Part shown: positions 33,962 to 34,119 of the stretch, one piece after another
Position numbering within the stretch: the stretch's first letter is position 1
Layout of the letters: each line of letters opens with the position of its first letter
Assembly (NCBI RefSeq): GCF_902362185.1
Contig: NC_044504.1
Span: 33,220,702 to 33,284,701 of the forward strand
Direction of reading: 5' to 3'
DNA: 64,000 bases
Source of the DNA: Chanos chanos
Lineage: Eukaryota
The notes under the pieces: model-generated
What the model saw: the letters and a program-made list of their open reading frames with translations, nothing else
The model's database searches: none
Told to the model about the DNA's origin: nothing
Position numbers and translations under genes: made by a program

Positions 33962-34056
33962 GTCTTTAAGGTGAAGGCGGTCCAGCTGGCGGAGAAGTTG
34001 CTTCCTGCCTTTAACACTCCCACAGGAATCCCCTGGGCCATGGTCAACCTGAAGAG
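33962..34056 (+). CDS. man1a2: man1a2 coding exon ([31 protein letters not shown] + ag)
   Basis: Acceptor (CT)n...tctctctgcag|GTC and donor AAGAG|gtgagt at 34057. This is the first of three identical tandem donor copies; only the first keeps the frame open. Confidence 0.85.
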
Positions 34057-34119
34057 GTGAGTGGTCATGGTCAACCTGAAGAGGTGAGTGGTCATGGTCA
34101 ACCTGAAGAGGTGAGTGGT
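34039..34119 (+). repeat. Perfect 3x tandem repeat of a 27-bp unit (catggtcaacctgaagaggtgagtggt) spanning the exon/intron boundary of a man1a2 exon
   Basis: Three identical copies at 34039-34065, 34066-34092 and 34093-34119. Each carries the donor AAGAG|GTGAGT. Confidence 0.95.

What the first reader, a model, noticed from the sequence alone, without database searches (positions are those of the whole stretch)
34039..34119. 27-bp tandem triplication copies a man1a2 splice donor three times
The last 18 nt of the exon plus the first 9 nt of the intron (catggtcaacctgaagag|gtgagtggt) occur as three perfect head-to-tail copies. This gives three identical strong 5' splice sites (AAGAG|GTGAGT) at 34057, 34084 and 34111. 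Only the first yields the conserved ...MVNLK-S-GVGRNW junction. Using the second or third donor inserts 27 or 54 nt that read AGG TGA, an immediate in-frame stop inside the GH47 catalytic domain. Perfect copy identity implies a very recent event, or a polymorphic or assembly-level expansion. Splicing among identical donors normally favours the intron-proximal one, which here would be the truncating choice. Either the gene is partly down-regulated by this structure or unusual donor selection occurs.
Basis: seen in the sequence. Interest (0 to 1): 0.65.

Follow-up and report, generated by a model that had tools for sequence, protein, structure and literature searches.

The report
Triplicated splice donor in fish man1a2
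A 27-base piece spanning the end of exon 6 and the start of intron 6 of a fish Golgi mannosidase gene (man1a2) is present as three perfect tandem copies; this is a young, lineage-specific example of a known kind of repeat (as in human F7 and CBS) and probably does little harm, though its effect on splicing could not be measured here.

Summary
Positions 34039-34121 hold 3.07 perfect head-to-tail copies of a 27-bp unit (18 nt of exon + 9 nt of intron). This gives three identical GAG|GTGAGT donors, with the G of GT at 34057, 34084 and 34111.

The gene is man1a2 (GH47). Exons 2-13 lie in the window and give an intact 541-aa reading frame, 98% identical to other otophysan fish. Only donor 1 gives the conserved ...MVNLK-S-GVGRNW junction. 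Donors 2 and 3 add 27 or 54 nt that begin with an in-frame TGA.

Every orthologue I could retrieve has a single copy: three genomic loci and eleven antisense ORFs covering this exon. The triplication is therefore lineage- or individual-specific.

The structure is not new in kind. Human F7, CBS, IFI6, LMNB2 and PDGF carry minisatellites whose first unit spans an exon-intron boundary, and in F7 only the most upstream donor is used.

My best reading is a near-neutral or mildly hypomorphic proto-minisatellite in which donor 1 still makes the productive mRNA and any downstream-donor transcripts are removed by NMD. Donor usage, copy-number polymorphism and assembly accuracy could not be tested.

The parts
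5024..45767 (+). man1a2 (GH47 class I alpha-1,2-mannosidase IB), coding exons 2-13. Exon 1 lies upstream of the window.
   Evidence: tblastn with fish and primate MAN1A2 proteins. Spliced model gives a 541-aa open frame, 98.1% identical to Pygocentrus P0140. Pfam PF01532 E=8.3e-167, profile positions 1-455 of 455.
33962..34056 (+). Exon 6 (95 nt), encoding [31 protein letters not shown] plus AG of a split Ser codon.
   Evidence: Acceptor is ctgcag|GTC and donor is GAG|GTGAGT.
34039..34065 (+). Repeat unit 1: last 18 nt of exon 6 plus first 9 nt of intron 6. It contains the authentic donor (GT at 34057-34058).
34066..34092 (+). Repeat unit 2, identical to unit 1. Pseudo-donor 2 has GT at 34084-34085.
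34093..34119 (+). Repeat unit 3, identical to unit 1. Pseudo-donor 3 has GT at 34111-34112.
34120..34121 (+). CA: the first 2 nt of a fourth unit, which is the 2-nt junction microhomology of the duplication.
   Evidence: TRF array end at 34121, 3.1 copies; sequence.
34058..34060 (+). TGA in the exon-6 reading frame. It is intronic if donor 1 is used and becomes a premature stop if donor 2 or 3 is used. A second copy lies at 34085-34087.
   Evidence: Translation of the three alternative splice products. The ORF listing ends at 34060.
34057..35318 (+). Intron 6 as defined by donor 1 (1262 nt). It would be 1208 nt with a single-copy unit.
   Evidence: Donor and acceptor (cctcag|T at 35318/35319) read. 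Frame confirmed.
35319..35442 (+). Exon 7: T completing the Ser codon, then [14 protein letters not shown]...YYQK.

Best explanation
This is a young, lineage-specific proto-minisatellite. A 27-bp segment spanning the exon 6 / intron 6 boundary of man1a2 was tandemly duplicated and then expanded to three units (inferred). Only 2 nt (CA) of microhomology sit at the unit junction, which is shown by the sequence.

The first unit keeps the authentic donor. Units 2 and 3 are intronic copies of that donor ('5' pseudo-sites').

The most likely behaviour (inferred, not shown) is that the most upstream donor (GT at 34057) still produces the productive mRNA, and the extra 54 nt are removed as part of intron 6. 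That is what happens at the human F7 IVS7 minisatellite. Any transcripts spliced at donor 2 or 3 carry an immediate in-frame TGA with seven exon junctions downstream, so they should be degraded by nonsense-mediated decay. At worst the allele would then be a mild hypomorph, comparable to the CBS 31-bp VNTR.
For: Structure:
- Perfect 27-bp x 3.07 array, unique in the window.
- Exon/intron assignment and reading frame.

Lineage specificity:
- Single copy in Sinocyclocheilus grahami, Champsocephalus gunnari and Logan SRR26958219. These three are aligned.
- Single copy in eleven antisense ORFs covering this exon from other assemblies.

The gene is under strong constraint and intact:
- 12 exons, all GT-AG introns, a 541-aa open frame 98% identical to distant otophysans, and a full-length GH47 match.
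- man1a2 loss is harmful in zebrafish knock-down and lethal in mouse knockout (PMC7662016; PMC8343402 abstract). A strongly truncating allele is therefore a priori unlikely to appear in a reference assembly.
- Such an allele is also unlikely to have survived the two successive steps from 1x to 2x to 3x (inference).

Natural precedents:
- F7 IVS7 has 5-9 identical donors 37 nt apart and only the most upstream is used. LMNB2 and PDGF likewise use only the authentic site (PMC1557585).

The same gene tolerates such motifs:
- Seventeen sense-strand copies of the identical 9-mer GAGGTGAGT sit inside intron 11.

Weak supporting evidence:
- The predicted unpaired probability of the 9-nt donor is about 0.42 for donor 1, against 0.07-0.26 for donors 2 and 3, in four sequence contexts.
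Against: [quoted passage not shown] Its use rises beyond about 30 nt separation and reaches about 100% at 45 nt or more (PMC3413131). Donors 1 and 3 here are 54 nt apart.
- Each unit carries a purine-rich GAAGAG just upstream of its donor. SR-type enhancers generally activate the donor downstream of them and repress the one upstream (PMC5397162), which would pass the 'exon end' towards donor 3.
- The F7 donor is weak (UGG/gugggu), whereas this one is near consensus, so the F7 precedent may not transfer.
- In CBS and IFI6 the next two pseudo-sites are used as well.
- No RNA data or second assembly of this species could be reached.
Confidence: 0.6

Rival explanations
1. Loss-of-function allele. 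The intron-proximal donor 3 (and/or donor 2) wins the competition, nearly all transcripts carry the TGA and are degraded, and the assembled haplotype is a null or strong hypomorph. It would be tolerated because the sequenced fish is heterozygous or because other class I mannosidases compensate.
For: - Intron-proximal preference for strong duplicated 5' splice sites at 45 nt or more (PMC3413131).
- Position-dependent action of enhancers located between competing donors (PMC5397162).
- The donor is near consensus, and each copy brings its own upstream GAAGAG.
- The FGG junction duplication is pathogenic.
- The in-frame TGA removes about 70% of the GH47 domain.
Against: - The gene is otherwise intact and extremely conserved.
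- man1a2 deficiency is deleterious in fish and mouse.
- Reaching three copies implies that a two-copy intermediate persisted (inference).
- Natural boundary-spanning minisatellites (F7, LMNB2, PDGF) use the upstream site.
- Adjacent donors are only 27 nt apart, below the roughly 30-nt threshold at which the proximity effect begins.
Confidence: 0.2
2. Copy-number-dependent dosage tuning. All three donors are used in appreciable fractions, so the array diverts a set share of transcripts into NMD (unproductive splicing). Man1a2 output would then scale inversely with repeat number in a polymorphic population.
For: - CBS c.1444_1467+7(16_21) and IFI6 use the authentic donor plus the next two pseudo-sites.
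- The CBS VNTR paper title reports reduced enzyme activity (Lievers 2001, cited).
- The 27-nt spacing lies in the range where neither site dominates in the Cunningham/Eperon data.
Against: - There is no conservation of the array in any other species, so it is not an evolved regulatory element.
- No expression or population data are available.
Confidence: 0.1
3. Assembly artefact. The true genome has one copy (or two), and the extra units were introduced by assembly or polishing.
For: - Perfect identity of the copies.
- No independent record of this locus from the same species could be found.
Against: - The 64-kb window has no N. It runs through a 356-bp (CT)n, a 1.2-kb minisatellite and many homopolymers of 18-28 nt, which suggests a long-read assembly in which an 81-bp array is spanned by every read (inference).
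- No other perfect complex-unit duplication occurs in the window, so there is no sign of a systematic duplication artefact.
Confidence: 0.08

Closest known systems
Human F7 intron 7 37-bp VNTR (Borensztajn et al. 2006, PMC1557585)
   Same: The first monomer spans the exon-intron boundary, so the authentic donor is followed by identical donors at regular short spacing. Use of the downstream copies would disrupt the protein.
   Different: F7 has 5-9 units of 37 bp (4 nt exon + 33 nt intron) and a weak donor (UGG/gugggu), is polymorphic, and has been characterised experimentally. Here there are 3 units of 27 bp (18 nt exon + 9 nt intron) and a near-consensus donor. Usage and polymorphism are unknown.
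Human CBS 31-bp VNTR, c.1444_1467+7(16_21) (PMC2630376; Lievers 2001, as cited there)
   Same: The unit is mostly exon (24 nt) plus a few intron nucleotides (7 nt), the anatomy most like 18+9 here. It is common in healthy people.
   Different: CBS has 16-21 units with some internal substitutions, so it is old. The authentic donor plus two pseudo-sites are reported as used. Here there are only three perfect units, lineage-specific.
IFI6 (6-16) intron 2, LMNB2 and PDGF boundary-spanning minisatellites (listed in PMC1557585)
   Same: [quoted passage not shown]
   Different: They have many more units (10-26) and different unit lengths. In LMNB2 and PDGF only the authentic site is used; in IFI6 three sites are used.
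Engineered duplicated 5' splice sites (Cunningham 1991; Eperon laboratory; Hodson 2012, PMC3413131)
   Same: Identical strong donors (AGG/GUGAGU) compete for one acceptor at defined spacings.
   Different: These are artificial two-site substrates. They predict the intron-proximal site at 45 nt or more, which is the opposite of the natural F7 outcome.
[quoted passage not shown]
   Same: A tandem duplication that copies a splice donor.
   Different: It is 403 bp rather than 27 bp, and it is a rare pathogenic allele with mostly intron retention.

Membership tests
Exon-intron boundary-spanning minisatellite / VNTR that reiterates a 5' splice site (F7, CBS, IFI6 type) | Head-to-tail tandem array with a unit of about 10-100 bp | tested here: met
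   27-bp unit, 3.07 copies, 100% identity. With only three units it is a proto-minisatellite.
Exon-intron boundary-spanning minisatellite / VNTR that reiterates a 5' splice site (F7, CBS, IFI6 type) | The first unit spans an authentic exon-intron boundary | tested here: met
   The homology-based gene model places the exon 6 end at 34056, inside unit 1. The junction to exon 7 restores the conserved K-S-GVGRNW.
Exon-intron boundary-spanning minisatellite / VNTR that reiterates a 5' splice site (F7, CBS, IFI6 type) | Downstream units carry donors identical or nearly identical to the authentic one | tested here: met
   GAAGAG|GTGAGTGGT at 34057, 34084 and 34111.
Exon-intron boundary-spanning minisatellite / VNTR that reiterates a 5' splice site (F7, CBS, IFI6 type) | Copy number varies among individuals | not testable with these tools
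   No second record of this species' locus was found.
Exon-intron boundary-spanning minisatellite / VNTR that reiterates a 5' splice site (F7, CBS, IFI6 type) | The authentic (most upstream) donor is used in vivo and the pseudo-sites are silent or minor | not testable with these tools
   No transcript data for this species are reachable.
Regulated unproductive splicing (alternative 5' splice site coupled to NMD) | The alternative site introduces a premature stop more than 50-55 nt upstream of the last exon junction | tested here: met
   The TGA at 34058-34060 becomes exonic with donor 2 or 3, and seven exon junctions lie downstream. The NMD rule itself is established knowledge.
Regulated unproductive splicing (alternative 5' splice site coupled to NMD) | The alternative site is conserved across species | tested here: not met
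   All retrieved orthologues have a single donor.
GH47 class I alpha-1,2-mannosidase, MAN1A2 (IB) orthologue | Full-length Glyco_hydro_47 domain, with best matches to proteins named mannosidase IB | tested here: met
   PF01532 E=8.3e-167, profile 1-455 of 455. 97-99% identity to fish proteins named mannosidase IB, against 77% to IA.
GH47 class I alpha-1,2-mannosidase, MAN1A2 (IB) orthologue | Conserved neighbourhood (TENT5C/FAM46C next to MAN1A2, as at human 1p12; the human arrangement is from memory) | tested here: inconclusive
   An NTP_transf_7 ORF at 56461-57630, E=2.8e-162, lies 10.7 kb downstream. The human arrangement was not checked with a tool.

The most novel reading that the evidence does not exclude
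The array is a heritable, copy-number-dependent 'dimmer' for a dosage-sensitive N-glycan-processing enzyme. Each added unit would shift more man1a2 transcripts to a poison donor and NMD. A polymorphic 1x/2x/3x series in this fish would then be a natural allelic series and would directly pit the 'oriented scanning' rule against the 'intron-proximal' rule for strong, identical 5' splice sites at 27-nt and 54-nt spacing.
Probability: 0.1. Interest if true: 0.55.

Novelty: new member of a known kind. Interest (0 to 1): 0.3.

Why it matters
Choice among identical neighbouring 5' splice sites is still described by two conflicting rules. One says the most upstream site wins (F7 'oriented scanning'). 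The other says the intron-proximal site wins (model substrates with strong sites). Here three perfect, near-consensus donors sit 27 and 54 nt apart in an essential, highly conserved gene, and the outcome is easy to score: normal mRNA or an immediate stop. If the allele is real and RNA is available, this is a clean natural test case in a non-mammalian vertebrate.

For genome annotation it is also a caution. Gene predictors could pick the wrong copy and call a truncated man1a2. Otherwise it is an ordinary small tandem duplication at an exon-intron boundary.

Tried and rejected
1. Exact look-ups of window ORFs to find an independent assembly of the same species all returned 'not on record'. These were the 118-aa antisense ORF covering the array, the 57-aa exon ORF, and TENT5C with two start codons.
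2. A scan of metagenome contigs for the 29-nt exon/intron probe gave 0 matches.
4. Look-ups of the Ictalurus and Alosa orthologues were not on record.
5. Homology searches with the antisense ORF found only other species, all with a single copy. They covered 1.84 billion representatives and the 90% clusters.
6. Cluster members of the ten closest proteins included none identical to the window protein, so the species could not be identified. GC 44% and GC3 72% argue against zebrafish.
7. I first thought a TGGTCA direct repeat was the slippage register. It lies at a 21-nt offset, not 27, so I rejected it; the true junction microhomology is only CA.
8. RNA folding gives only a modest signal (z = -2.05; accessibility), and I treat it as weak evidence.
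9. MaxEnt, HEXplorer and ESE scoring could not be run because the tables are not available offline.

Full report
**Observation**

Positions 34039-34121 contain 3.07 head-to-tail copies of CATGGTCAACCTGAAGAGGTGAGTGGT, with 100% matches and no indels (TRF; sequence read).

A 29-nt probe for the unit matches exactly three times (34039, 34066, 34093). It matches nowhere else in the 64-kb window even with three mismatches, and 0 matches are expected from 100 shuffles.

In a whole-window scan this is the only perfect array with a complex unit. All the others are microsatellites, low-complexity repeats or imperfect arrays.

The array extends 2 nt (CA) into a fourth unit, and the left flank does not extend it. 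The duplication junction therefore carries only 2 nt of microhomology. My earlier idea of a TGGTCA slippage register was wrong, because that repeat is offset by 21 nt rather than 27.

**Gene context**

The plus strand encodes a GH47 class I alpha-mannosidase. Exon peptides hit PF01532 proteins. The 356-aa C-terminal model is 97-99% identical to fish proteins named mannosidase IB / MAN1A2, against 77% for IA.

Using tblastn and manual splice-site reading, I placed coding exons 2-13 at these coordinates:
- 5024-5281, 14873-14969, 25005-25123, 28765-28845
- 33962-34056, 35319-35442, 35546-35639, 39955-40070
- 40197-40416, 41744-41916, 44983-45098, 45635-45767

All introns are GT-AG. The spliced frame is open for 541 aa and is 98.1% identical to Pygocentrus and 97.9% identical to carp and Sinocyclocheilus. 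It matches the whole Glyco_hydro_47 profile (E=8.3e-167, profile 1-455 of 455, residues 87-526).

A TENT5C/FAM46C-like single-exon ORF lies 10.7 kb downstream.

**Anatomy of the repeat**

The unit is the last 18 nt of exon 6 plus the first 9 nt of intron 6.
- Donor 1 (G of GT at 34057) joins ...AAG AG to T GGC GTG at the acceptor cctcag|T (35318/35319). This gives ...MVNLK-S-GVGRNW..., the junction found in all homologues.
- Donors 2 (34084) and 3 (34111) have an identical context from -18 to +9. They add 27 or 54 nt that stay in frame but read R-stop-VVMVNLK, with TGA at 34058-34060 and again at 34085-34087.
- The stop falls after residue 216 of the 541 encoded in the window, 130 residues into the 440-residue GH47 domain.
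- Seven exon junctions follow. By the established 50-55-nt rule such transcripts should be NMD substrates (inference from established knowledge).
- GAG|GTGAGT matches the MAG|GTRAGT consensus at 8 of 9 positions and is among the best donors in the gene.

**Lineage specificity**

The orthologous exon end is single-copy in every relative I could retrieve:
- Sinocyclocheilus grahami...gccatggtcaatttgaagag|gtatgttac (L001).
- Champsocephalus gunnari...gccatggtcaacctgaagag|gtcagtgac (L002).
- A Logan fish contig from SRR26958219...gccatggttaacctcaagag|gtgagctac (L003).
- These three are aligned with the window.
- Eleven antisense ORFs that read through this exon in other assemblies each contain a single ...LFRLTMAQG... 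or a variant of it.

Exon nucleotide identity to these species is only 81-88%, so none is a close relative. The window's species could not be identified. GC of 44% and GC3 of 72% argue against zebrafish.

**Is it real, and how old is it?**

I found no second record of the locus from the same species, so copy number cannot be verified here.

The window has no N. It runs through a 356-bp (CT)n, a 1.2-kb minisatellite and many homopolymers of 18-28 nt. That suggests a long-read assembly in which an 81-bp array is spanned by single reads (inference). I put an artefact at about 8%.

Perfect identity bounds the age only loosely. At 2e-9 to 1e-8 substitutions per site per generation (rates from memory), the mean wait for a first change in 81 bp is about 6 to 1 million generations.

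**Which donor is used?**

This could not be tested, and the literature is divided.

*Evidence favouring the upstream donor.* Borensztajn et al. 2006 (PMC1557585) studied the human F7 IVS7 37-bp VNTR, whose first unit spans the boundary.
- Of 5-9 identical donors only the most upstream is used.
- Inactivating it activates the next one.
- Pseudo-sites strengthened to a consensus value of 91 still do not compete.
- The paper also lists LMNB2 and PDGF, where only the authentic site is used, and IFI6 and CBS, where the authentic site plus the next two are used.
- The CBS VNTR is written c.1444_1467+7(16_21), meaning 24 exon nt plus 7 intron nt (PMC2630376). This is the anatomy closest to the 18+9 unit here.

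*Evidence favouring a downstream donor.*
- Hodson et al. 2012 (PMC3413131) summarise work with strong duplicated sites (AGG/GUGAGU or consensus). [quoted passage not shown] Here adjacent donors are 27 nt apart, and donors 1 and 3 are 54 nt apart.
- Brillen et al. 2017 (PMC5397162) state that SR-type enhancers activate a donor from upstream and repress it from downstream. Each unit here carries GAAGAG just upstream of its donor.
- A 403-bp FGG junction duplication is pathogenic (PMC9052919).

*Evidence from this window.*
- The predicted unpaired probability of the 9-nt donor is about 0.42 for donor 1 and 0.07-0.26 for donors 2 and 3 in four sequence contexts. The fold z-score is only -2.05, so this is weak.
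- Intron 11 of the same gene contains 17 sense copies of the identical 9-mer GAGGTGAGT in a 55-bp minisatellite. A consensus 9-mer alone is evidently not enough to make a used donor in this gene, although those copies lie more than 1.1 kb from the exon.

**Weighing the alternatives**

The gene is intact and under very strong constraint. man1a2 knock-down disrupts biliary and ciliary development in zebrafish, and knockout mice die of respiratory failure (PMC7662016; PMC8343402 abstract).

A strongly truncating allele would be rare. It would be unlikely to persist through two expansion steps and then be sampled in a reference genome, whereas a near-neutral 54-bp intronic insertion would face no such barrier (inference).

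My estimates are:
- About 0.6 that donor 1 remains the main productive site, so the allele is benign or mildly hypomorphic.
- About 0.2 that it is a strong hypomorph or null.
- About 0.1 that there is substantial mixed use acting as dosage tuning.
- About 0.08 that it is an assembly artefact.

**Comparison with what is known**

The structure meets the sequence-level criteria of a boundary-spanning minisatellite that reiterates a 5' splice site. Polymorphism and in-vivo donor use are untestable here.

It is not a conserved 'poison' splice site, because the conservation criterion is not met.

It is therefore a new, very young member of a known kind. Three things set it apart: the near-consensus strength of the donors, the short 27-nt spacing, and the immediate stop codon, which makes the outcome easy to score. 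Interest is modest (0.3) unless RNA data show substantial or copy-number-dependent use of the downstream donors.

Noticed in passing
window 43013-44194 (+), intron 11 of man1a2: A 55-bp minisatellite (21.6 units, also scored as a 165-bp period) carries 17 sense-strand copies of GAGGTGAGT, the same 9-mer as the exon 6 donor. Each unit also holds an AGGTTAGT-like motif. This large array of consensus-like pseudo-donors sits inside an intron whose own donor (CAG|GTTAGT) is weaker.
   Followed up: partly
window 56461-57630 (+): Single-exon ORF of 389 aa with a full-length Pfam NTP_transf_7 match (E=2.8e-162), i.e. TENT5C/FAM46C-like, 10.7 kb downstream of the man1a2 stop codon. From memory, the two genes are also neighbours at human 1p12. 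The exact protein is not on record in the contig collection.
   Followed up: partly
window 41546-41724 and 33897-33957: A (TG)~89 microsatellite ends 19 nt upstream of the exon 11 acceptor (41744). A (TC)30 tract runs up to the exon 6 acceptor (33962). Long UG and UC/CU tracts next to 3' splice sites are potential TDP-43 and PTB binding sites, as with the CFTR exon 9 (TG)m tract (from memory). Their effect here is unknown.
   Followed up: no
window 25124-25132: The exon 4 donor (GTG|GTGAGTGGT) begins its intron with the same 9 nt, GTGAGTGGT, as intron 6. This is probably coincidence.
   Followed up: no
window 17824-17851, 20654-20673, 29721-29742, 45783-45801 and others: There are unusually many long G or C homopolymers (C28, G20, C22, G19, several G18), plus a 356-bp (CT)n at 25825-26180, all assembled without gaps. 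They may be a feature of this genome or of the sequencing platform.
   Followed up: no
window 34058-34071: If donor 2 or 3 were used, the premature TGA would be followed 6 nt later by an in-frame ATG (the Met of MVNLK). Re-initiation could in principle produce an N-terminally truncated protein lacking the membrane anchor. This is unlikely to be efficient after about 300 codons (inference).
   Followed up: no
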